DNA of 64,000 nt. Source: a virus. Its lineage: Duplodnaviria; Heunggongvirae; Uroviricota; Caudoviricetes. The notes under the pieces were generated by a model. The model searched no databases, was not told the origin of the DNA, and saw nothing but the letters and a program-made list of their open reading frames with translations. The DNA is taken from IMG/VR virus record IMGVR_UViG_2875713109_000001; one strand, given 5' to 3'. Position 1 is the first letter of the stretch; every line of letters starts with the position of its first letter. Both the position numbers and the translations under genes were made by a program. Positions 1 through 59,103 of the stretch are shown here, one piece after another.

Positions 1-3000
1 TCCCTGTGGTGGCGGCCTCCCTGATTGCTGTTACCCACGATTGAGTCAGCGCGGCGAATGCATGATTCAGATTGGCTTCCCGTTCTGCTGCGATGCGCGC
101 GCTTGCTGCGTCCATTGCCTGCTTGATCTCGGCTTTATTGCTGTAAATGCCAATGGTGCCAAACTGTGCTGTGGTGATCTCATAATCTGACGCCCGGAAC
201 TCATTGGTACCGAAAATGGCATTGGTGACTTCAAGTTCAGAATCCCCGTTACGAGTAGCCCCCTGGCTTGTTTTTTCCGGCATTCTGGCGATCGCATCCG
301 CTATTTTCTCCTGAATTGCTTCAGGGGATAGCGTATCTCCGTATGACGCGATTACATCGCCATAATTGGAGCCAAACAGTTCAACCAGGAATGTTTCTGC
401 CGAACGGATCTGGCGGTTATTCCCTTCCGACATCATACCAAGCACCCATTTTGCAATTGACGACTTCAGCGCGCCGTCACGGCGATCCGGGTAAACCGCA
501 TGCTTCAGTGGGTCCGTATAGGTACCAACAAAATCAATGCTATAGCCTGACTCTGTAGTCTGAACGCCGTACGAGTCAGTGATTTTGATCATGCCGCGCT
601 GCTGGAAACGGTAGAAATCGTCACAGGAAATGATGTCGTTAATCCCGGCGATGGAGACGCCACCACTGATTTTCTGCATAACAGCATCTTCATCGGGAGT
701 TACATCCACCTGTTTATCCAGCGTCTTCACATCCCAGTTACCCGATTTGGTGCCTCTTAAGGTAAAGATGCTCTCCACGTCTGCGCGCTGGCTGTCGAAG
801 TCCAGCGACTTAATGCGAACGATATCACCGGCACAATCGTAGTATTGGCCTACACGCCATGAGCGATCGCCGATAACAAGGAACTCATTCGCATGGTTAA
901 CCAGATCAGGATCAACATCCAGAATGCCTTTATTTATTGCATCCTCCACCAGCGGGCGCAGGCGTTTGATATCCGTCGCGGCCTTCTGAGTACGGTTCAA
1001 TAATTTCTCATAGCGGGAGATGGCCTGAGAGATATTAGCCTTGCGCTGAATGGCGCTTTTCAACGACGCGCGATACTGTGCTAACAACATACGGTCTGTG
1101 TGATGGACACTCCCCCAGCGGGCCTTCCAGTCTGCGTTATCCGCTGCCTTGGCCATTGCCGCCTGTTTGAATTTAGCTACCTCGGCGGTGGTCTTTTCAA
1201 GTTCCGCTTTGCTTCGCTCTAATTCAGCGGTAAGTACCTCCACATCCTCGCCAGCTGCGTGCTGCGCCTTGATGTAGTTCTGAAGGTCGATAGTAGCCTG
1301 TTCTTTCTGGCGAGCGCGTTTCGCAGCTTTCGCCTTATCCATTTGAACCTGCATCATTGCCAGACGTTCGCCGTCATCCTTCGCGGTATACATCTGCATT
1401 TCGATCATGTCATTGGCGTCGGCGTTCTCCATTTCTGACTTATCTGAACGGAGGATATCGGAGATCCAGCCTGCTTTACGCTTCAGCGTCTTCAGTCGGT
1501 ATTCATCGAAAGACCCCTTGCCGCAGTAGTAGTGAACGCGAACGCTTGCACGGTTGGAACCAACTCGGGCACCGCGACCGTTACGCTGTGCGATACTGGC
1601 TGGTGTCCACGGCAACGTCAGGTGGTGGATATCCGTCGTTCCTCGATGCAGGTTGATACCCACCTCTGCCTTTTTGTTGCAGATGATGATCGGAGTCCGG
1701 CCCTCCTGGAAGTCGGCTGCAATCTTTTCCAGACCGCCCAACGACATTTCATTTTGCTGCGCGATATAGGCGTCATACAGAGCCATTTGCTCGTTGTATT
1801 TCGCTATCTGTGCATCTGTTGGTTCATCCGGTAGCTCTTTCGGCGGTTTAACCGCTTTCAGTTTCTTACCGGTTTTACCTGCCTCGGCAACCGTCTGAGC
1901 ATTCAGGATCCCCACCTTTGAAGGTTCAAGGTTTAGAGCATTGCAGATAATGCGCTTGAGCTTCTGGTGCTGCGTTTTTTCATCGGTGAAGATGATTTGC
2001 TTACCTTCCGGGAAAAACTCCTTCAGCGTGGCGATCAGCTTCGCGTATTTGGGCGTAACGGGGTGAGTTACGGTCTGTTCGTCAATGCCAAACCTGGCCA
2101 GGCGCTTATTCACTTCCTGCTCGAACGCTTCCGGAACCTGCAACTGAATAAACTCGCCCTTATCTATCAGGGAGTATTGCGATTGCTGCGTGATTGAATC
2201 ATCACTGTCGTCGTCTTCGCTGGTGGCTTGTTTAGGCAAACTGTCCGCCAGCTGCTGCACCGCATCGGCGTACTCCGGCAGGAAACGATAGGTGATCCGG
2301 CGATAGTACAGGTCCATGTCAGTACATACGCGGTCCATATCCCTGATTATTGAGAAGATCGGACGGGCTTTCTCGTGCTCAATCACGCCGTCTTCATTGA
2401 CCGAGGTCGTTACGCCATTGTTGGCTTTGGCCGCCGCTTCCGCCTGCTGACGCAATTCTTCATACGCCGCCAGTTGTTCTTCAGTAAGTGGTGCATCCTG
2501 CTGGTGTTCGTCCAGCTCCGGGATCTCCACGGTATCCTTAACGTCTTCCGCCGTTTTAAGCGTTACCCAGCGATGGAATATACCGCGCAGCGCATCAAGG
2601 TTTTCAAAGCCCACCAGCGCCATTTTTTCTTCAACTTCACCGCTAATTTTCTGTACCGTTTCCAGCCTGGTCTTGCCGAAGAATTTAACGAAGTCATCAG
2701 GACCGTAGATCCCCATGTTCTGCCAGTATTCCTTCGGCAGAACATGAGAAAGCATGTTGTATGCATCGATCGGGGTGTTAACGACTGGCGTTGCAGTCAG
2801 GAGAACCGGCCCGCGCCCGCCATTCTTTTTCATCAGGTACGCGTTTTTAATTGCCATATCTCGCGCCGATTGCGCCACCGCGCTGGTGGGCAGATAGGCC
2901 AGCTGTGACGCTTCGCGACCATTTTTATAGCTATTGCGGTAGTTGTGGCCTTCGTCAGCAATCACGCTGTCGAAGCCCATATCCTCAAAGTACGGATACT

Positions 3001-6000
3001 TCTCTGCTTTTTCGGTACCGGTATCTGAATACTCCGACAATACCCGGCGACGCGCGGCCTCTTTGCGGTGGGAGTCGGAATCCATTGCGCTGGCTACGCG
3101 CCCGGCGGCAACGAAGTCATAAAGCATATCCTGTGCATGCTCATCTACGGTGTCATCACGTAGCGGAATGCGGGCGTATTGTTCTTTGGTAAACACGACT
3201 GCACGGTAATTTGAGTGCGGGATCGCGTTCATCCGCGCCGTGATAGTGGCTTCATCTGCCAGCTTAAGAGCATCGCGCATAACTGGAGTGCCATCAGTAC
3301 CAAGAACAGGTTTACCGTTCTCATCGAGCACCGGCACCTGGCGAATCTGATCGCCATCCATCAGCACATCAAGACCGACGAACAGGTAGTTACTGAATGC
3401 CTCTTCACTCAGGAATTCTTTTGCTTCGTAATACCAGTTTTCCAGCACTGATTTAGGCACTACATACGCAGTACGGGTGGAGCGACCGTTCTCATAGTTG
3501 AACGCCTCAAGCGCCAGCGCGGTCGTGGTTTTACCCAGCCCGGTGCCGAAGCCCAGGATGCCGCGCCCATCTTCGGACAGTCGGCGCACCTCGCTATTCT
3601 GGTAATCAAATGGCTGGCGCTTACCGCTTAATCCCTTCAACCCAAGCGGATCGCCAGAGTGTTCATACGGGATATTGCTATTGAACACATCGTTATATTT
3701 GGCAACCAGCTCATCGTAGCGATCGTGCGTCTTGATCCACTTATTGAACTGGTCCTCAAGCAGTGCCATCTGCTCGCGGTAGCCGTTCGCCGTCGCGCTA
3801 TCTTTGCCACCGATACGCGCACCATTGAGATACTTTTCCAGCTGTGCCGGGAACCCGGTCGCGTTTTCACCTGATTTACGGTCCCACTCGTAGCGGATCT
3901 CGCCTGTTTCTTTATCCTTGCGCTGGACGACACCGTATCGGTGCCCGACGAACAGACCATCACCACCGTGATAGGTGTCAGAAACCATTTCGTCGCCTTC
4001 CAGCTGCACTGACTGCACATAGCGCAGATCCGGATAGCCGTTTTCCTGCAAAAACTCCAGAATGACGGAGCGGTCGAACCAACGGCTATTGAGCTTAAAG
4101 CGGATATTCTCTGCTGGCGTCTTGATGCGCTTCTCTTCAATCGCTGCCAGCTGATTAAGGACGTTGTTTTTTACTGGACCGTCGGGGAGTGTGGCAAGGA
4201 ATTCCTGTTTTGGAGCCACTATCTCGTTAATGTCGCCGCTGGTGGCGCGGGCAAACGGAACAATCCCGCCATACGGTGAAACCGCAATGCCAGGGGTGCT
4301 GGCCAATAAATTAAGCAACTCGTCATCACTGGCTGGCAGTTCGCCGGTAAACGCAAGGCGGAAATCATCGAGCTGGATTGGATCGCGAGTGAGATCACTG
4401 TAGAGATAACGCAGGGTGTCCTGATAGCTGGTGGAGTCATAACTGGCGCTGGAATCATGCGTAACCAGTTTTCCTGTCAGCTCGTCAGAAATAGTGCCAT
4501 CCAGCTTAATTGCACCACGGAAAGCAAACCAGGCGCGCGCACCGCTCCCCGATAATTTCGCTATCGGACCGCGGCCGGGGTTACCAAAACGGTCAATCTC
4601 TGCCTGCAAACGGGATACCAGAGAAAGGCGCTGCTGTTCGATTTGTTCAGCACTATGCCCGGCGGCCTTCATGTCCTGATATTCAATTAACATCCGGCCA
4701 ATCATCGCCCCGCGATACAAGCGTTCACGGTATTTTTCAGGCTGGCTGTTAATCCAGTCCACCAGCTGCACCATATCGTCGCTGATTGATGTGGTGTACT
4801 TATCGCGGACATTTGCCATCTGGGTAAATGTCATACCGAGACGGCCTTCTGTTGTAGTCAGGTTACGCTGAAGAGCCTCCCAGCTATCCGCGCCATAACT
4901 GGCAACATCAATCTTCAGCTCCTTCCCGGCATCAGCTTCAATCCAGCGACCACCAGCATATTTTTGCCATACGCCATTAATCAGGCGCATTTCCCCTTCA
5001 TCAACAACATCTGCGGTCGGTGACGGTTCAGCCATATCGAGCAAAGACCAGTCGATACGACTTTCGAAACGATGAATCAGCTTCGCTTTAAGAGCCTGGT
5101 TATCAATCTGCCCGTCGGCACGAACCTCAATACGCCCCTGGAATCCCTTCTCCTGAGTGCCATGAACAAACCGGCGGCCGTCCTTTTCAAACCACTTGCC
5201 AGAAATAAACGTTGGCCAAAGCACATTTGCCGATTCAAGAGTGCCTTCATCCACCAGGGGGATTTTCTCAGCCATCTCCGCCGGATGTTTGCGCATCAGC
5301 ACCACGTCAACGACCGTACTGGTCCCGTTTGCGTCAAAAGTACCGGTAGGCAAGCGGTGGGCACCAAGAAATTCAGCTTTCCGTGATAGGCGCAGGCGTA
5401 ACCGCTTCATGTTTGAACCTGAAACAATGGACGGCGGCACAATCACGCACATGAATCCGCCTGGCTTTATCTTGTCCAGCATGCGGAGCATGAAGTAAGA
5501 ACCCATGTCCGTTTCTTCTGCGTAAGGCTTATCGATGTTGCGTGTGTTATCACGACCACCGAACGGAACGTTACCCACAACATGGTCGAATGAATCGTTA
5601 GGCGTGCTTACAGCCAGTTGTTCGAACGGGGAAATCTGTACGCTGTCTTCCGGATGTAACAGCTGGTTTATACGACCGGAAACACTGCTGATCTCAGTCG
5701 CGGTCATCACCGTGCCAACCGGTTTTGTCTCATTAAAAACGCCGGTGCCCGCCGATGGTTCCAGAGTGTTACCTACGTCCGCGCCGTAGAGCTTCATGAT
5801 CTCCCAGACACCTTCAGCTATCGGCTTTGGTGTGTAATATTCGGAGACGGACCCGCCAATGCCGCCTTCACCGGTGTACCCAGCCAGGATCTGGCGCTGT
5901 TCATCTGTCAGTGTCGCGCCGTCCACCAGCGAATTAAGCAAATCTATCGCCTTCTGATTCGCCTCACGGCGCAGTCGGTCATAGCTTTTGCCTTCCACCT

Positions 6001-28649: not shown

Positions 28650-31600
28650 CAATCAACTCTCGCGTAGTCATTCATCAACGGATCATCAATTGACAGTGGT
28701 ACCGTGCGCATAACGCCCGGCTGAGGCGTGCTGACCTTTACGACAGTTCCCTGGCCTTTCGCCGAGTCTTTGGTGTGCTCTTCAATCCTGGCAAGCAATG
28801 AGGTCATCTGCGCAAACAGCCGCTTCGTTTCACCATCAAGTGAAACGGTATTATCAGCCAACTGCATTGTCGGCTTGGCACCGGAACCGCCAAGGTCACT
28901 AATAACCTGCCCGTCTATCTGCATACGACCGGTTGGTTGCTGCAAATCGTTGGCGGCAGTCGTCACCTTGGACGTGGAGGCTGGTTCAGGCGCATTATTT
29001 TTCCGCATCCCCGGCGAGTTGCGGAGTTTATCGAATAGTCCATCAATCCCCATTTGTGCGCCGAGTTGGTCAAAGTAACTTGAGTTGCTGGCCACCGGAC
29101 GCGCCTCTTCAACTGGCATCGGAATATCAACATACACATTGCCAGCTGCTGTTGCGGTCCCCTTCCCTCGTGCACGTTCTTCGAGCGTTCCCTGAACGAC
29201 TTCCCGACGCATACCCCGGCCATTCATGAATTTGTTGACCAGATCGTTAACGCCAACAGCATTGCCGATTTTGTCTACCAGACCGCCTTTCTCAAACGGG
29301 CTATCACCAGGGGTAAACGCCAGGCCAGTAGACTGATCGATAACAGCGTTATCAGGCAGTGGTCCCCTCACTCCATATTGCGCCCCACCCTGTGCTCCTG
29401 CTCCAGGTGTATAGATTTCACCACCTAAATAGCGAGCACGATGAGTATTGACCTTGATCGCGTACTCACGGTTTTCTTTCGATAAGTCACCTGTGCCTTT
29501 TTTCCACTTATTGATAGTGCCAAACCCAGCGTTATATGCAGTGATGGCCTCGTTTAAGTCTCCATTGGCTTGCTTCAGATACTTGCTCATGAGAAGAGCC
29601 GCAGCTTCTGCCGATTTCACAGGATCAAACGATTCACCTTCAGCTAAGCCAGTCTCTTCACGAGCAATCCCCGTGAACTGAAACATTCCCAGAGCACCGG
29701 TTTGGGATTTTGCATACGGATTACCACCAGATTCAGTTGCAGCAATCGCGTAAAGAGTGCCTTCTGGAAGACCATATTTATTCTCTAGTTCAGCAAAATA
29801 CGGAGCCAACTTATCGAGATTTGCCTTACCTTCAGATCCAAGACTTCCGACTTTTACATCCAAGCGGCCATTGTTGTAGGTATCCGCAGCTTTCTGAATG
29901 TCACTCCTGGTGCCAGTGGTATTAAGCGACGATGATGACGAGCTATTTTGACCAATAGCTTTATCAATTTTCTGCAACGCGCTATTGCCCGTTTCTACGG
30001 CATTTGCATTGATAATCTGATTCGCAGTTTCTTTAACTGTTTTATTGCTATCTTTCGCCGTGTCCAGTGCCGCATTTATCACGCGGGTAACAATATTAGT
30101 CTGTTTGGCATCGGATTCAGTTTTAGAATCAGATGTCTCCTGGTGGCTATTAACCGGAGCTTTTAACTCTGGAGTGATTTCTTTGGCATTAGCCTCGCTA
30201 TTAACCGGAGCTTTTAACTGTGGAGCGATTTCTTTCGCATTAGCCTCGCTATTAACCGGAGCTTTTAACTCTGGAGTGATTTCTTTCGCATTAGCCTCGC
30301 CGATCGGATTGGGTATTTTTGATACAATCATTGCCGCAGGGGTATTTTTAACGGCATCAACCGCTGCATCTAATGCTTTACCAGGTAAATTTTTAACCCC
30401 ATCCCAAATATTACCAGCCGCCTCTTTAATGTGTTTCCCTGGGTTCTTAATGAAATCAATTGCACTATCAATTGCATCACTGAAAACCTGTTTCAGGTTA
30501 TCAACAGTAAAGAAGTCTTTGATGGCATCCAGCTTTTCAAGCAGCTTATTAGATGTATCGCTAAACCATGCTGAAACAGCATCACCAATCTTTGCTGTGT
30601 AATCTTCGAACTTGGTAGAAATGGTGTCGCCAAGGTTAGAAATATATGTTTCTAAGTTGGTAATCCCACTATCAATGGCCTGGGCAATACTTTCCGTCGA
30701 AAATGATTGCAACATATTGCCGATATCCTCAAATCCAAGTGATTTGAGAACCTCACCAATGGCGCTGCTAATACCAGATACCAGTCCCCCCATATCAAGA
30801 ACATTGGCTAACGTATAAGCGGCTTTTTGCTGGAATGATGGATCTTGTCCTGATTTAAGCCCAAACGCTCGACGTTGCGCTTCTGTATCATTCCAACCGG
30901 TTACCGCATCATAAATACCTCCAGCCACTGTGCCGACTAAGGGAATTGCGCGTAACGCCCCTTTACCAACTGCCTTTAATCCAAGTTTACCTGCTGCCCG
31001 GGCAGCCAAATCTCCACCTTCATGGGCGATAGTCTTCTTGCCACCACCGCGTAGCATTCCTACAAGTTTCTTTGCCCCCAGAGCGCCAAAAGCGAGTGCT
31101 CCAGCTTTTTTCAGCATGCCACGCCCCATTAACAACGACGCGACGCCACCGGCCCCCTTCCCTAACAGGCTAAATAGTTTGGACAGCAAGCCGCCCTTCT
31201 TTTTCCCGGTGTTTTTGGCTATCTGATCAAGGGCGCTGAGAATCTTGTCATTGCCCTCTTTAATTTCGCTGGTCTGCTCCTGAAGTTCCTGAACTGTCCG
31301 TTTTTGGGTGTTAACCTGAACGACATCGGCACTATTTTGCGATTTACGCCTAAAAAAACCTTTTCTACGGCTGTTATCGTCATTGCCACGAATCACATCG
31401 GCAATAGACTTTCTGGCACCATTAAGCGATCCACCAACTTCTTTTGATATCCCGCCAAGCTCCTTCCCTGCTGCCCACAATGGACCAGCAACGGCATAAC
31501 CTAACGCATCAACGGCACGAGTCTCTGAAGGGTTACCTATGCCTTCAGCTACTTTTGACAGTTTTTTTAATAAACCTGATTCAGCATTTAGACGCTCATC

Positions 31601-32440
31601 ATCCTCTTTACGCCTGGCCTTTTCAGCACGTTCAGCACGGGCATCTTCCGCTGCGGCCTTACTCCCTGACTTTCCAATAAAACGACCACGCGCATCGCGT
31701 TGGTTTTGGCTTTTTTGCGCACCGCCTTTTTGATCGAACATTTCGCGAGCGTGTTCGGCTGCTTCGGTCCGTTGTGCCTTTATATCCTCTGGTATAGCCT
31801 TCCTGCGTCGTTTTTTACCCTTTGGTGTAGTTGATTTGGCCTGCTGTTCCTGTTGAGCAATGCCCTCCTGAACTACACGAGAAACGTCCCCTAAATTAAG
31901 CCGTTTCATTGCGTCAACAATAGGGTCTACTGATGGCGCATTGGCCACAAAGTCTGGCCGGGAATTTTCGATTGTTCGATTTAATGCCGACACACTGCGA
32001 GATACTGGGTCAACCGTTGCAACGCGTTCCCCTTTCAAATCACGAGCGAGTTTAACCGTTTCTAACCGCTGTGCTTTAACATCCTCTGTTATTGCCTCTC
32101 TTCGTCTATTTGGGGGATTGTGCGCTGTTGGTGCAGCCTGCTGTGCACGGTTAGTGACTTTGTCCTCCCGTATACGAGAAACGTCCCCTAAATTAAGCCG
32201 TTTTATTGCGTCAACAATAGGGTCCACTGATGGCGCATTGGTCACAAAGTCAGGACGTGAATTTTCGATTGTGCGATTTAATGCCGACACACTGCGAGAG
32301 ACAGGATCAACAGTTGCAACTCGTTCCCCTTTCAAATCTTCAACAGCTTCCCGAATACCTGCAAGCTCTTCCAGCTCTTTCGCGCTGGCGGTTTCAACTG
32401 TCCTTATAACATCGTCAATATTGGCGTTTTTTCTTTCCAT
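28649..32440 (-). CDS. sit: tail tape measure protein with C-terminal lytic transglycosylase domain
   Basis: 1263 aa; SLT motifs AIAATESGG, GALGMFQF, AYNAG; internal tandem duplications. Confidence 0.8.
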   Translation of the reverse strand: MERKNANIDDVIRTVETASAKELEELAGIREAVEDLKGERVATVDPVSRSVSALNRTIENSRPDFVTNAPSVDPIVDAIKRLNLGDVSRIREDKVTNRAQQAAPTAHNPPNRRREAITEDVKAQRLETVKLARDLKGERVATVDPVSRSVSALNRTIENSRPDFVANAPSVDPIVDAMKRLNLGDVSRVVQEGIAQQEQQAKSTTPKGKKRRRKAIPEDIKAQRTEAAEHAREMFDQKGGAQKSQNQRDARGRFIGKSGSKAAAEDARAERAEKARRKEDDERLNAESGLLKKLSKVAEGIGNPSETRAVDALGYAVAGPLWAAGKELGGISKEVGGSLNGARKSIADVIRGNDDNSRRKGFFRRKSQNSADVVQVNTQKRTVQELQEQTSEIKEGNDKILSALDQIAKNTGKKKGGLLSKLFSLLGKGAGGVASLLMGRGMLKKAGALAFGALGAKKLVGMLRGGGKKTIAHEGGDLAARAAGKLGLKAVGKGALRAIPLVGTVAGGIYDAVTGWNDTEAQRRAFGLKSGQDPSFQQKAAYTLANVLDMGGLVSGISSAIGEVLKSLGFEDIGNMLQSFSTESIAQAIDSGITNLETYISNLGDTISTKFEDYTAKIGDAVSAWFSDTSNKLLEKLDAIKDFFTVDNLKQVFSDAIDSAIDFIKNPGKHIKEAAGNIWDGVKNLPGKALDAAVDAVKNTPAAMIVSKIPNPIGEANAKEITPELKAPVNSEANAKEIAPQLKAPVNSEANAKEITPELKAPVNSHQETSDSKTESDAKQTNIVTRVINAALDTAKDSNKTVKETANQIINANAVETGNSALQKIDKAIGQNSSSSSSLNTTGTRSDIQKAADTYNNGRLDVKVGSLGSEGKANLDKLAPYFAELENKYGLPEGTLYAIAATESGGNPYAKSQTGALGMFQFTGIAREETGLAEGESFDPVKSAEAAALLMSKYLKQANGDLNEAITAYNAGFGTINKWKKGTGDLSKENREYAIKVNTHRARYLGGEIYTPGAGAQGGAQYGVRGPLPDNAVIDQSTGLAFTPGDSPFEKGGLVDKIGNAVGVNDLVNKFMNGRGMRREVVQGTLEERARGKGTATAAGNVYVDIPMPVEEARPVASNSSYFDQLGAQMGIDGLFDKLRNSPGMRKNNAPEPASTSKVTTAANDLQQPTGRMQIDGQVISDLGGSGAKPTMQLADNTVSLDGETKRLFAQMTSLLARIEEHTKDSAKGQGTVVKVSTPQPGVMRTVPLSIDDPLMNDYARVD

Positions 32441-32521
32441 GATCTTATCGCCTACCGTTTCGGTTTAAGTTTTTCTTCCAGTTTCTCCAACAGGAAAAAC
32501 GCATAGGATTCAGTAAGCCTT

Positions 32522-33403
32522 TCAGCGTCCTGAATCGGTATACCCCCATACAAAACCAGGTTGGACACTAAGGTCTGATAGCTTTTCAATCCCCACCTGT
32601 GGAATGAAGTCGGTAGCCCGAAAGGGCACCCACAGACGGGTATATGCACCCTCTGTGGACTCCTTTTTATCCTGATTTGGGCATTTATGCGGCGGGAGAC
32701 GAAGACGCATTTCACCTTTATCGATGTAGCACGGTAAACCATGTTCGAGCTTTTCATGAGCCAGTCGGATGTGTGCCGCCAGCTTCATAAATTCAGTATC
32801 AATGGCCATCCGTTTAATCGTTTCATAACGACGCTCAGCCTGATCTTCACGAGTACCGCTAACATCGTTATAAAGCTCACACTGATAAGCGAATTCCCAA
32901 AAACGCAAATCAACGATCGCTTCTTTGAATTCCGCGTCGTCTTCAGGTGGCAATGCTGCACGGCGCATCTCCAGCATTTCCATTGCCCAACCATCAAGCG
33001 GCACGATACGCCATTGATAAGGTACTCCCTCTACAGACACCTCAATATCGTCAATGAAAGGTTCCACTTCCAGGACCTGGATATCTTCAGCCAGAGCATT
33101 CATATCGCAATCGTAATAATGCTCTTTACCGCAATGTTTACAGGTGTAGGTGAATGTCTCGACCGGTGTTTCACGGGAGCCGGTAAATATCCACCATAAC
33201 GCGGTAATCCGGTCCTGCGCCGTCCATGTCAGGGGATCATGTTTCGCGGGTTCAGCCAGCAAGGCTTTTAAATACGCCGTTGTCTGTTGTTCTTGTTCCT
33301 CCGGTGTTATCGAGTTGAAACGCATCGCATCAGCAATATTTGGCTGACGGAACTGGATCAATTCAGTTGGCCGCGATGGTAGCGGGAAAAGGGGTAAAAG
33401 CAT
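32522..33403 (-). CDS. tail/baseplate protein (P1 PmgB-like by synteny)
   Basis: 293 aa, ATG start. Confidence 0.4.
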   Translation of the reverse strand: MLLPLFPLPSRPTELIQFRQPNIADAMRFNSITPEEQEQQTTAYLKALLAEPAKHDPLTWTAQDRITALWWIFTGSRETPVETFTYTCKHCGKEHYYDCDMNALAEDIQVLEVEPFIDDIEVSVEGVPYQWRIVPLDGWAMEMLEMRRAALPPEDDAEFKEAIVDLRFWEFAYQCELYNDVSGTREDQAERRYETIKRMAIDTEFMKLAAHIRLAHEKLEHGLPCYIDKGEMRLRLPPHKCPNQDKKESTEGAYTRLWVPFRATDFIPQVGIEKLSDLSVQPGFVWGYTDSGR

Positions 33404-36087: not shown

Positions 36088-36116
36088 TTGACCTTTTAAT
36101 CGTTCAGGCTTATAGT
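36088..36116 (+). promoter_or_regulatory. sigma70 promoter TTGACC-17 bp-TATAGT for the c4-icd-ant operon
   Basis: Near-consensus -35 and -10 with 17-bp spacer. Confidence 0.5.
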
Positions 36117-36229
36117 TTCGCCGTCGTAGCAAATTCTGCGACCAGGTTTGACAGCCTGAATGATTGTGCGGACAACCGCAGATTTCCGATATTGCGGTAT
36201 TTTTGTGTCCGTTAAACCGCGTTACGCCC

Positions 36230-36340
36230 AAATTATGGTGGGGCGTGATGGGGAGGCTTCGGCCTGCTGGTTTCACAATCGCCAGTCTGTCAACCCTGTC
36301 ACGTCCTGCCACCTGTTTGACAGCGGGTAGCAGGTTGTTA
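36230..36340 (+). ncRNA. c4: c4-like antisense repressor RNA region (approximate)
   Basis: Leader between promoter and icd holds hairpin-prone GC segments and TTTGACAGC boxes (~36148, ~36315) with a partial complement CTGTCAAC (~36288). Confidence 0.35.
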
Positions 36341-57069: not shown

Positions 57070-57145
57070 GATGGTGTAGCTCAGCGGTTAGAGCGGTTGA
57101 CTGTTAATCAACGGGTCGATGGTTCAAATCCATCCACCATCGCCA
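57070..57145 (+). tRNA. tRNA-Asn (anticodon GTT)
   Basis: Full cloverleaf read by hand: acceptor GATGGTG/CACCATC, anticodon loop CTGTTAA, T-arm GATGG-TTCAAAT-CCATC, encoded CCA. Confidence 0.9.
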
Positions 57146-57147
57146 AT

Positions 57148-57223
57148 GCCGGTTTAGCTCAGTTGGTAGAGCGCCTGCCTTGTAAGCAGGATGTCAGCGG
57201 TTCGAGTCCGTTAATCGGCACCA
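57148..57223 (+). tRNA. tRNA-Thr (anticodon TGT)
   Basis: Acceptor GCCGGTT/AATCGGC, D-arm GCTCAGTTGGTAGAGC, anticodon loop CTTGTAA, T-loop TTCGAGT, encoded CCA. Confidence 0.9.
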
Positions 57224-59027: not shown

Positions 59028-59103
59028 GGCCCTTTAGCTCAGTGGTTAGAGCTGGCGACTCATAATCGCACGGTCACCGGTTCAAGTCCGGTAGGGGCCA
59101 CCA
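59028..59103 (+). tRNA. tRNA-Ile2-like (anticodon CAT, lysidine-type)
   Basis: Near-identical in layout to remembered E. coli ileX: GGCCCTTTAGCTCAGTGGTTAGAGC...CTCATAA...GGTTCAAGTCC...AGGGGCCACCA. Confidence 0.85.

What the first reader, a model, noticed from the sequence alone, without database searches (positions are those of the whole stretch)
30130..32340. Internal tandem duplications within the tape measure gene
Three consecutive ~57-bp repeats (about 30130-30300, peptide NAKEI.P.LKAPVNSEA) and a ~300-bp direct duplication (about 31700-32340, peptide ATVDPVSRSVSALNRTIENSRPDFV) lie inside sit. Tape measure length sets tail length, so these predict tail-length polymorphism or recombination hot spots.
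Basis: seen in the sequence. Interest (0 to 1): 0.3.

Follow-up and report, generated by a model that had tools for sequence, protein, structure and literature searches.

The report
Length-variable repeats in P1 tape-measure gene
The tail tape-measure gene (sit) of this P1-like phage-plasmid carries two real in-frame repeat blocks whose copy numbers differ among near-identical relatives, an ordinary kind of tape-measure variation that should, but has not been shown to, change tail length.

Summary
Both repeats are real. The window is a P1-like (Punavirus) phage-plasmid. The gene is sit (28649-32440, minus strand, 1263 aa), which the P1 literature treats as the tape measure and which carries an SLT domain.

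Block 1 is three copies of a 51-bp unit (not 57 bp), encoding the 17-aa unit EANAKEITPELKAPVNS. Block 2 is a tandem pair of 297-bp (99-aa) modules.

P1, P7 and SJ46 have one unit and one module. Relatives carry 1-5 units and 1-3 modules, so intact Sit ranges from 1100 to 1340 aa. Proteins with identical backbones differ only in unit number. Two sibling plasmids differ by exactly one 297-bp module with no SNP over about 6.7 kb. Both reciprocal products of unequal crossover between the conserved module cores are present in the databases.

The module pair is old. Between the two copies, the cores have dS 0.28 and dN/dS 0.06, while the tails have dS of about 1.

So gene-length polymorphism and recombination are shown. 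The tail-length effect stays inferred: about +6 tube rings over P1's 52 if length scales proportionally. A low-confidence model places the 17-aa units in a proline-rich coil.

This is a new example of a well-known kind of tape-measure variation. Interest is modest.

The parts
28649..32440 (-). sit: tape-measure / structural injection transglycosylase gene, 1263 aa, intact ORF
   Evidence: ORF list and translation. 96-98% nt identity to sit of P1, P7, JL22 and RCS47. Annotated Sit, 'putative tail ruler', in P1 AF234172. Nucleotide-identical to the CDS of p3CM-97kb.
30146..30298 (-). 51-bp x 3 in-frame tandem repeat (a VNTR), aa 715-765, unit EANAKEITPELKAPVNS. The middle unit carries T->A and E->Q changes.
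   Evidence: TRF period 51, 3.0 copies, 95% matches, score 289. The repeat finder family D2. Unit sequences. One copy in P1/P7. 1-5 copies in relatives.
32042..32338 (-). 99-aa module A (aa 35-133), made of core 32174-32338 and a diverged tail 32042-32173. It is absent from P1, P7 and SJ46.
   Evidence: the repeat finder D1, spacing 297. Alignments. Tail A occurs only in alleles with two or more modules. It is present in 198 of 469 sit-bearing complete E. coli records.
31745..32041 (-). 99-aa module B (aa 134-232), made of core 31877-32041 and tail 31745-31876. This is the copy orthologous to the single module of P1/P7.
   Evidence: Module B tail versus P1: dS 0.10. Module A tail versus P1: dS 0.99. 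Protein alignment.
29471..29800 (-). SLT lytic transglycosylase domain of Sit (aa 881-990), downstream of both repeat blocks
   Evidence: Pfam PF01464, E = 1.8e-27, 95.7 bits against a cutoff of 21.3.
32522..33403 (-). pmgB, directly upstream of sit. Context gene, proposed tape-measure chaperone in P1.
   Evidence: PHROG 1854, PmgB-like, E = 1e-154. P1 annotation. Chaperone proposal in PMC9024508.
28293..28652 (-). pmgA, a baseplate wedge gene directly downstream of sit. Context gene.
   Evidence: Synteny with P1 pmgA and P7 bplB. PHROG 1896. Listed as baseplate wedge protein 1 in the P1 structure paper PMC12810830.

Best explanation
The two features are in-frame, length-variable segments of the tape-measure protein Sit of a P1-like phage-plasmid.

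The 51-bp array behaves as a coding minisatellite. Its length is a multiple of three, so gain or loss of units never breaks the frame. Gain or loss presumably happens by replication slippage or unequal exchange between near-identical units. The result is a series of Sit alleles that differ by 17 aa, with 1-5 units seen.

The 297-bp block is an old tandem duplication of an N-terminal 99-aa module. Both copies are kept under purifying selection. Their 165-bp cores stay about 93% identical and serve as substrates for unequal homologous recombination and gene conversion. This yields one-, two- and three-module alleles.

Together these processes produce intact Sit proteins of 1100-1340 aa in natural P1-like elements.

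Inferred, not shown: if Sit acts as a ruler as in lambda, T4 and TP901-1, the window's Sit should specify a tail roughly 5-6 tube rings longer than P1's 52. It is 123 aa longer than P1 Sit and 133 aa longer than P7 Sit. At about 22 aa per ring that is roughly 10% more tail.
For: Shown here:
- Repeat anatomy.
- P1, P7 and SJ46 have one module and one unit. phi456 has two modules and forms plaques, so a two-module Sit is functional.
- Among the 120 closest proteins, unit number is 1-5, with at least 16 different unit-order patterns.
- Three pairs of proteins with identical backbones differ only in unit number: 4 v 5, 1 v 3 and 2 v 3.
- In complete E. coli assemblies the repeat region spans 453, 504, 555 or 657 nt, which equals 1, 2, 3 or 5 units. 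This includes an intact 1297-aa, 5-unit CDS.
- In a spread sample of 60 of 469 records, about 65% had 1 unit, 10% had 2, 5% had 3, and 20% carried a divergent allele.
- Tail A marks alleles with two or more modules. It occurs in 198 records, with 207 matching places in all, so nine places in excess of one per record. I read this as about nine three-module alleles.
- An intact three-module Sit of 1340 aa exists in pEC2_5.
- pEC15-3 and pEC18-3 differ by exactly one 297-bp module, with 0 mismatches over about 6.7 kb.
- The three-module array is coreA-tailA / coreB-like-tailA / coreB-tailB. L018 is a single module with coreA+tailB. These are the reciprocal products of unequal crossover in the cores. 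L083 shows core conversion.
- Between the two copies: core dS 0.28 with dN/dS 0.06; tail dS 1.06 and dN 0.47.

From the literature:
- Sit is assigned as the P1 tape measure. It is detected in virions, and its N-terminal two-thirds are helical (PMC9024508).
- P1 has 52 tube rings and 53 sheath rings (PMC12810830).
- Duplicating or deleting N-terminal tape-measure segments changed the TP901-1 tail by about 30% in proportion (PMC5099701).
- Tandem repeats are common contributors to tape-measure length variation (PMC13585406).
Against: - No tail length has been measured for any P1-like phage with a long Sit.
- Sit's ruler role in P1 rests on size and analogy. Sit is unresolved in the cryo-EM maps.
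- The AF2 model of aa 1-800 has very low confidence (mean pLDDT 33.5). It places the three 17-aa units in a 63-residue coil (aa 709-771) and makes the modules only partly helical. These segments may therefore be linkers that do not count in the ruler.
- A 17-aa step is less than one ring by proportional scaling, so single-unit changes may have no effect on ring number.
- Some copy-number calls come from draft short-read assemblies. Four-unit alleles were seen only in the protein collection, on 88-96 kb contigs, and in none of the complete-genome rows I inspected.
- One of the three-module alleles (pEC15-3) sits in a frameshifted sit.
Confidence: 0.72

Rival explanations
1. The repeats are neutral linker variation. 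They lie in flexible, non-ruler parts of Sit: a proline-rich spacer before the SLT region and a partly disordered N-terminus. Copy number then drifts by slippage and recombination without changing the number of tail rings. At most it alters the slack or reach of the SLT and hub-proximal part during penetration.
For: - AF2 predicts coil for aa 709-771, which holds all three units, and coil for the module tails (low confidence).
- Each unit has two prolines and no aromatic or heptad pattern.
- The equivalent segment is a different, shorter P/E/K-rich sequence in the phi456/SJ46 alleles. That is typical of a tolerant linker.
- Copy number varies freely on identical backbones.
- A 17-aa step is about 0.8 ring by proportional scaling (1140 aa per 52 rings).
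Against: - In the systems tested (lambda gpH and T4 gp29 from general knowledge; TP901-1 in PMC5099701), almost any internal tape-measure segment counts towards length. This included non-repeat and hydrophobic regions and an N-terminal duplication.
- The module cores are under strong purifying selection in both copies (dN/dS 0.06), so module A is not a dispensable spacer.
- 99-198 extra residues would be hard to hide in a tube lumen of fixed length.
Confidence: 0.25
2. The 99-aa module is a docking site, for example for the putative chaperone PmgB or for the tail terminator at the head-proximal end. Its duplication would then change assembly stoichiometry or efficiency rather than length as such.
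For: - The core (VSRSVSALNRTIENSRPDFV...LNLGDVSR) is nearly invariant across all alleles, and in both copies.
- The module is found only in Punavirus Sit proteins among 1.84 billion representatives. That pattern is typical of a lineage-specific interaction motif.
- pmgB lies immediately upstream and is proposed as a chaperone.
- In TP901-1 the N-terminal 154 aa of the tape measure are needed for assembly.
Against: - There is no direct evidence for any interaction.
- One-, two- and three-module alleles all occur as intact genes, and phi456 with two modules is viable. Dosage of the site therefore seems uncritical.
- This reading is compatible with the ruler explanation rather than exclusive of it.
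Confidence: 0.1
3. The repeats are assembly or sequencing artefacts, caused by mis-joined reads in a repetitive region.
For: Tandem repeats of 153-255 bp can be mis-counted by short-read assemblers. Some related records carry homopolymer frameshifts that suggest long-read errors.
Against: - An identical 3792-nt gene occurs in a closed circular plasmid.
- The same architectures recur in dozens of independent complete assemblies and IMG/VR contigs.
- The module copies have diverged (78% nt identity), so they cannot be a collapsed or duplicated read artefact.
Confidence: 0.01

Closest known systems
Sit of bacteriophage P1 / P7 (structural injection transglycosylase, putative tail ruler; GenBank AAQ14011, AAQ07509)
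   Same: Orthologue. It is 96-98% identical outside the repeats. It has the same neighbours (tub, pmgB, sit, pmgA, bplA), the same SLT domain and the same C-terminal region.
   Different: The window protein is 1263 aa, against 1140 (P1) and 1130 (P7). It has a second 99-aa N-terminal module and three rather than one 17-aa unit. It lacks P1's 10-aa insertion in the SLT domain.
Tape measure of lactococcal phage TP901-1 (repeat region; engineered N-terminal duplication and deletions)
   Same: Internal repeats in a tape measure. Deleting or duplicating segments changes protein length. The authors propose that the repeats facilitate natural gain and loss (PMC5099701).
   Different: TP901-1 is a siphophage. 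Its repeats are 11 or 18 aa long and marked by Trp/Phe, and the tail-length effect was measured. Here the host phage is a myophage, the units are 17 and 99 aa with no aromatic marker, the variation is natural, and the tail-length effect is unmeasured.
Lambda gpH and T4 gp29 ruler experiments (in-frame deletions and duplications change tail length; general knowledge, not re-read here)
   Same: They provide the mechanistic expectation that tail length scales with tape-measure length, including in a contractile tail (T4).
   Different: Those were engineered alleles in phages with no natural copy-number series. P1 Sit also carries an enzymatic SLT domain.
Tape measures with embedded peptidoglycan hydrolase motifs (mycobacteriophage TM4 Tmp, T5 pb2)
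   Same: A ruler protein combined with a muralytic domain (PMC1796659; cited in PMC9024508).
   Different: Different hydrolase motifs and different phage groups. The repeats discussed here lie outside the enzymatic domain.
Coding minisatellites / VNTRs in bacterial and phage surface-protein genes
   Same: Head-to-tail units whose length is a multiple of three, with copy number differing between otherwise identical alleles.
   Different: This is not an on/off (frameshifting) contingency locus. The product is an internal virion protein, not a surface antigen.

Membership tests
P1 Sit orthologue (Punavirus tape measure with SLT domain) | High sequence identity to P1/P7 Sit over the full length | tested here: met
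   96-98% aa identity to P1 and P7 Sit outside the inserted repeats. 96-98% nt identity.
P1 Sit orthologue (Punavirus tape measure with SLT domain) | Position in the tail module: tub - pmgB - sit - pmgA - bplA | tested here: met
   The ORF order in the window matches the P1, P7, phi456 and SJ46 annotations. PHROG hits for Tub and PmgB.
P1 Sit orthologue (Punavirus tape measure with SLT domain) | Soluble lytic transglycosylase domain in the C-terminal third | tested here: met
   PF01464 at aa 881-990, E = 1.8e-27.
Phage tail tape measure protein (ruler) | Long, predominantly alpha-helical N-terminal and central region | tested here: inconclusive
   The AF2 model of aa 1-800 is mostly helical by DSSP, but its mean pLDDT is 33.5 and pTM 0.18. 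Helicity for P1 Sit is reported in PMC9024508.
Phage tail tape measure protein (ruler) | Protein length determines tail length (length mutants give proportionally altered tails) | not testable with these tools
   This needs electron microscopy of sit length variants. For P1 the assignment rests on size, helicity, gene position and virion mass spectrometry. Sit is unresolved in the cryo-EM maps.
Phage tail tape measure protein (ruler) | Virion component located in the tube lumen and baseplate hub | not testable with these tools
   P1 Sit was detected by LC-MS/MS of virions. Low-resolution density was seen inside the baseplate centre. Nothing can be measured for the window element itself.
Aromatic-marked 11/18-aa tape-measure repeats (as in TP901-1, p2 and mycobacteriophages) | Units of 11 or 18 aa, each starting with or containing a conserved Trp/Phe | tested here: not met
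   The units are 17 aa with no aromatic residue (EANAKEITPELKAPVNS). The 99-aa module has a single Phe. The comparison class is defined in PMC5099701.
In-frame coding VNTR (minisatellite) | Head-to-tail units of 3n bp, with copy number polymorphic among otherwise identical alleles | tested here: met
   51 = 3 x 17. Identical backbones carry 4 v 5, 1 v 3 and 2 v 3 units. 1, 2, 3 and 5 units occur in complete assemblies.
Phase-variable contingency locus | Repeat-number change switches the reading frame or a promoter on and off | tested here: not met
   Both repeat lengths (51 and 297 bp) are multiples of three. Of the variant alleles checked, all but three were intact ORFs. The disrupted ones are pEC15-3/pEC18-3, where a separate 1-nt deletion causes the frameshift, and pH8 plasmid A, whose N-terminally truncated CDS annotation I did not explain.

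The most novel reading that the evidence does not exclude
Natural P1-like phage-plasmids carry a ready-made allelic series of the tape measure. Intact Sit runs from 1100 to 1340 aa, in discrete 17-aa and 99-aa steps on near-identical backbones. If so, this series would set tail length in quantised steps and turn over fast: sibling plasmids differ by one module with no SNPs. Tail length would then be a rapidly evolvable, possibly host-envelope-adapted trait in a contractile-tailed phage. The series could also be used to calibrate residues per ring, and to map which Sit segments count as ruler, in a phage whose tape measure is invisible to cryo-EM.
Probability: 0.3. Interest if true: 0.45.

Novelty: new member of a known kind. 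Interest (0 to 1): 0.25.

Why it matters
Tape-measure repeats and the proportionality between protein length and tail length are textbook for siphophages. They are documented for only a few contractile-tailed phages.

P1 is a major model phage and transducing tool, and P1-like phage-plasmids are common carriers of resistance genes in Enterobacteriaceae. Sit-bearing records occur in 467 of 5426 complete E. coli genomes.

If Sit length sets tail length, these elements differ by up to about 20% in tail length through simple slippage and recombination events. The natural series would then give a cheap test of the ruler model for P1, where Sit's role is still only inferred.

If tail length does not change, the repeats would mark non-ruler linkers in Sit, which is also useful for mapping the protein. 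In either case the 51-bp array is a practical typing marker for P1-like plasmids.

Tried and rejected
(1) BLAST coverage statistics as a copy-number census. The tool joins hits from different query units onto one subject copy, so '>=80% covered' counts are meaningless for tandem repeats. I used the span in the record (453/504/555/657 nt) on listed rows instead. Frequencies are therefore sample estimates, not full counts.

(2) 'places_in_record = 4' as a sign of four units. This was wrong: those records have three units.

(3) AF2 on aa 1-800 with a shallow alignment of 13 near-identical sequences. Mean pLDDT was 33.5, so it is usable only as a weak secondary-structure hint. No fold search was attempted.

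(4) Search for the source of module A. phmmer of the 99-aa module against 1.84 billion representatives found only Punavirus Sit proteins. The single weak hit (P0124, E = 2.6e-5) is an unrelated repetitive Gram-positive surface protein. No single-module allele with tail A was found among 85 loci. The origin, in-situ divergence or import from an unsampled relative, stays open.

(5) Literature. No paper in the searchable library describes repeat variation in P1-like sit. The phi456 paper shows virions and plaques but gives no tail length.

(6) Antisense ORFs over the repeats (30045-30602 +, 31941-32468 +). I treated these as by-products of a long conserved gene on the other strand and did not pursue them.

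(7) The idea that the DNA repeats are cis-acting sites such as iterons. The window's iteron-like array is elsewhere (50412-50514). The sit repeats evolve as coding sequence, with core dN/dS of 0.06.
Full report
**What the region is**

The finding lies inside one long ORF on the minus strand, 28649-32440 (1263 aa). At the DNA level this ORF is 96-98% identical to sit of phages P1, P7, JL22, RCS47 and other Punavirus members.

Its neighbours are those of P1: tub, pmgB, sit, pmgA (called bplB in P7) and bplA. Pfam finds one domain, the SLT lytic transglycosylase, at aa 881-990 (E = 1.8e-27).

The rest of the window carries other P1 hallmarks:
- the C4 antisense RNA and its a1b1 target
- three tRNA genes: Asn, Thr and one with a CAT anticodon
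- an iteron-like array

The window is therefore a P1-like phage-plasmid. Its sit gene is nucleotide-identical to the sit CDS of the circular E. coli plasmid p3CM-97kb.

In the P1 literature, Sit is the assigned tape measure. The assignment rests on its size, its predicted helical N-terminal two-thirds, its detection in virions and its position next to the putative chaperone gene pmgB (PMC9024508). It was not resolved in the recent cryo-EM structures, which give P1 52 tube rings and 53 sheath rings (PMC12810830).

**Check of the observation**

Both repeats exist.

*The tandem array.* It has three copies of a 51-bp unit, not 57 bp, at 30146-30300 (TRF: 95% matches, score 289; the repeat finder). 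In the reading frame this encodes aa 715-765:
- EANAKEITPELKAPVNS
- EANAKEIAPQLKAPVNS
- EANAKEITPELKAPVNS

*The '~300-bp duplication'.* This is a head-to-tail pair of 297-bp (99-aa) modules. Module A is 32042-32338 (aa 35-133) and module B is 31745-32041 (aa 134-232).

Each module has two parts:
- a conserved 55-aa core (DLKGERVATVDPVSRSVSALNRTIENSRPDFV...LNLGDVSR)
- a 44-aa tail

Between the two copies the cores are 92.7% identical at the nucleotide level, and the tails only 59.8%.

Chance is excluded. The longest exact direct repeat in sit is 39 nt, against a maximum of 15 nt in 200 dinucleotide shuffles. The same gene is present in closed plasmids and in many independent contigs.

**Comparison with relatives**

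P1 (1140 aa), P7 (1130 aa) and SJ46 (1137 aa) have one module and one unit. phi456 (1231 aa) has two modules. The window protein exceeds P7 Sit by exactly 99 + 34 aa.

*Closest proteins.* The 120 closest proteins in the large protein collection all have two modules. They carry 1, 2, 3, 4 or 5 units, giving lengths of 1229 to 1307 aa. At least 16 different orders of unit variants occur, for example T-A-T, T-A-A-T, T-T-A-T and T-A-T-A-T. Three pairs of proteins are identical over the whole backbone and differ only in unit number: 4 v 5, 1 v 3 and 2 v 3. The window differs by two residues from both 4- and 5-unit alleles.

*Complete E. coli genomes.* The repeat region spans 453, 504, 555 or 657 nt, which corresponds to 1, 2, 3 or 5 units. 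The 5-unit allele is an intact 1297-aa CDS in pMB15031_2.

| Class in an evenly spaced sample of 60 of 469 matching records | Share |
|---|---|
| 1 unit | about 65% |
| 2 units | about 10% |
| 3 units (the window's state) | about 5% |
| Divergent phi456/SJ46-type segment | about 20% |

Four-unit alleles were seen only in the protein collection, on 88-96 kb contigs. I could not confirm one in a closed genome from the rows I could inspect.

*The 99-aa module.* The diverged tail of module A is a marker for alleles with two or more modules. It occurs in 198 complete E. coli records, compared with 469 that carry the sit repeat region. There are 207 matching places in those 198 records. I read the nine excess places as about nine three-module alleles, and checked two of them directly.

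- pEC2_5 carries an intact three-module Sit of 1340 aa.
- pEC15-3 also has three modules, and its sibling pEC18-3 has two. The two loci show no other difference over about 6.7 kb. Both carry a 1-nt homopolymer deletion that frameshifts sit. This may be a sequencing error or a real inactivation.

**How the variation arises**

The three-module array reads coreA-tailA / coreB-like-tailA / coreB-tailB. Among single-module alleles, one (L018) has a type-A core joined to a type-B tail. One two-module allele (L083) has a type-B core in module A.

These are the products expected from unequal homologous crossover and gene conversion within the 165-bp cores: a triplication, its reciprocal deletion, and conversion tracts.

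The 51-bp units are 94-100% identical to each other, and their order patterns indicate repeated independent gains and losses. The mechanism, slippage or unequal exchange, is inferred rather than tested.

The module pair is old. Tail dS is about 1.06 between the copies. Module B's tail has dS of 0.10 to the P1 module, while module A's has 0.99. The cores show dS of 0.28 with dN/dS of 0.06. Both copies are therefore under purifying selection, and the cores appear partly homogenised.

No single-module allele with tail A exists among the 85 loci examined. The module occurs only in Punavirus Sit proteins among 1.84 billion representatives. Whether module A diverged in place or came from an unsampled relative cannot be decided.

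**Functional meaning**

What is shown is gene and protein length polymorphism: intact Sit of 1100-1340 aa. phi456, which has a two-module allele, makes plaque-forming virions.

What is inferred is the effect on the tail. With 1140 aa for 52 tube rings in P1 (about 22 aa per ring), proportional scaling predicts:
- about 0.8 ring per unit
- about 4.5 rings per module
- about 5-6 extra rings for the window allele

The expectation rests on ruler experiments in other phages. One example is the proportional 30% lengthening after an N-terminal duplication in the TP901-1 tape measure (PMC5099701). Lambda gpH and T4 gp29 are further examples from general knowledge. It also rests on the general finding that tandem repeats contribute to tape-measure length variation (PMC13585406).

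Against it, the only structural hint I could obtain is a very low-confidence AF2 model (mean pLDDT 33.5). It puts all three 17-aa units in a proline-rich coil between helical regions and makes the modules only partly helical. These segments may be linkers that do not count, or count differently, in the ruler. No tail measurements exist for long-Sit relatives.

**Comparison with what is known, and verdict**

The protein is a member of the P1 Sit family. Identity, synteny and the SLT domain were all tested and met. Its ruler function is accepted by analogy but cannot be tested here.

The repeats are not the aromatic-marked 11/18-aa tape-measure repeats of lactococcal phages and mycobacteriophages. 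They are also not a frameshifting contingency locus, because both periods are multiples of three.

They are a further example of a well-known phenomenon: internal repeats and duplications that make tape-measure genes length-variable. Here it occurs in a classic myophage, and I found no published description of it there.

Copy-number polymorphism and recombination are demonstrated. Tail-length polymorphism remains a reasonable, untested prediction.

Interest is modest. The most useful outcome would be to use the natural 17-aa and 99-aa allelic series to test the ruler model for P1.

Noticed in passing
window 21078-25589 (-), arrays at 21768-22053 and 23361-23645: The tail-fibre gene (S-like ORF) encodes 1503 aa. 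Two arrays of a 120-bp (40-aa) repeat lie about 1.6 kb apart, and seven partial copies of a 300-nt segment are present. Only about 1.5 kb of the query (positions 2978-4512) matches P7 S at 95%; that stretch includes the constant part Sc. No phage record covers 80% or more of the gene. This looks like a second repeat-expanded, mosaic virion gene.
   Followed up: partly
window 36110-36316 (+); 57070-57223 and 59028-59103 (+); 50412-50514: P1 hallmark elements are present. They are the C4 antisense RNA and its a1b1 target (Rfam), three tRNA genes (Asn-GTT, Thr-TGT and a CAT-anticodon tRNA), and an iteron-like array of about five copies with a 21-bp period. They support the identification of the window as a P1-like phage-plasmid.
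   Followed up: partly
L085 / L089 (pEC15-3 NZ_CP060921.1 and pEC18-3 NZ_CP060916.1); equivalent to window 31359: Both sibling plasmids share a 1-nt deletion in an A7C2 homopolymer context that frameshifts sit, and no intact sit CDS is annotated. This is either a long-read homopolymer error or a real inactivation of the tape measure in a plasmid-locked prophage. In the ~6.7-kb sit locus compared, they differ only by one 297-bp module.
   Followed up: partly
protein P0121 (1009 aa; a 50%-identity cluster representative): This is a chimeric protein. Its first ~230 residues are the end of module A, then module B, then Sit residues up to about 330. It then continues into unrelated sequence. It could be a recombinant or fusion that reuses the Sit N-terminus, or a misassembly.
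   Followed up: no
window sit aa ~905 (SLT domain), compared with L001 (P1): A 10-aa insertion (TLTRSPNGKL) in the SLT domain is present in P1 and many relatives but absent from the window and P7. It assorts independently of unit number: 1, 2, 3 and 5 units each occur both with and without it. This points to recombination within sit between the VNTR and the SLT domain, or to recurrent copy-number change.
   Followed up: partly
complete E. coli genome records: In many RefSeq records no annotated feature lies under module A ('none' in the feature column). In pH8 plasmid A the sit CDS is annotated about 106 aa shorter at the N-terminus. Automated annotation may therefore often miss or truncate the duplicated N-terminus, so protein-length surveys based on annotated CDSs would under-count long alleles.
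   Followed up: no
window 30045-30602 (+) and 31941-32468 (+): Antisense ORFs of 185 and 175 aa, both with TTG starts, overlap the two repeat blocks on the opposite strand. They are probably artefacts of a long conserved gene and were not examined.
   Followed up: no
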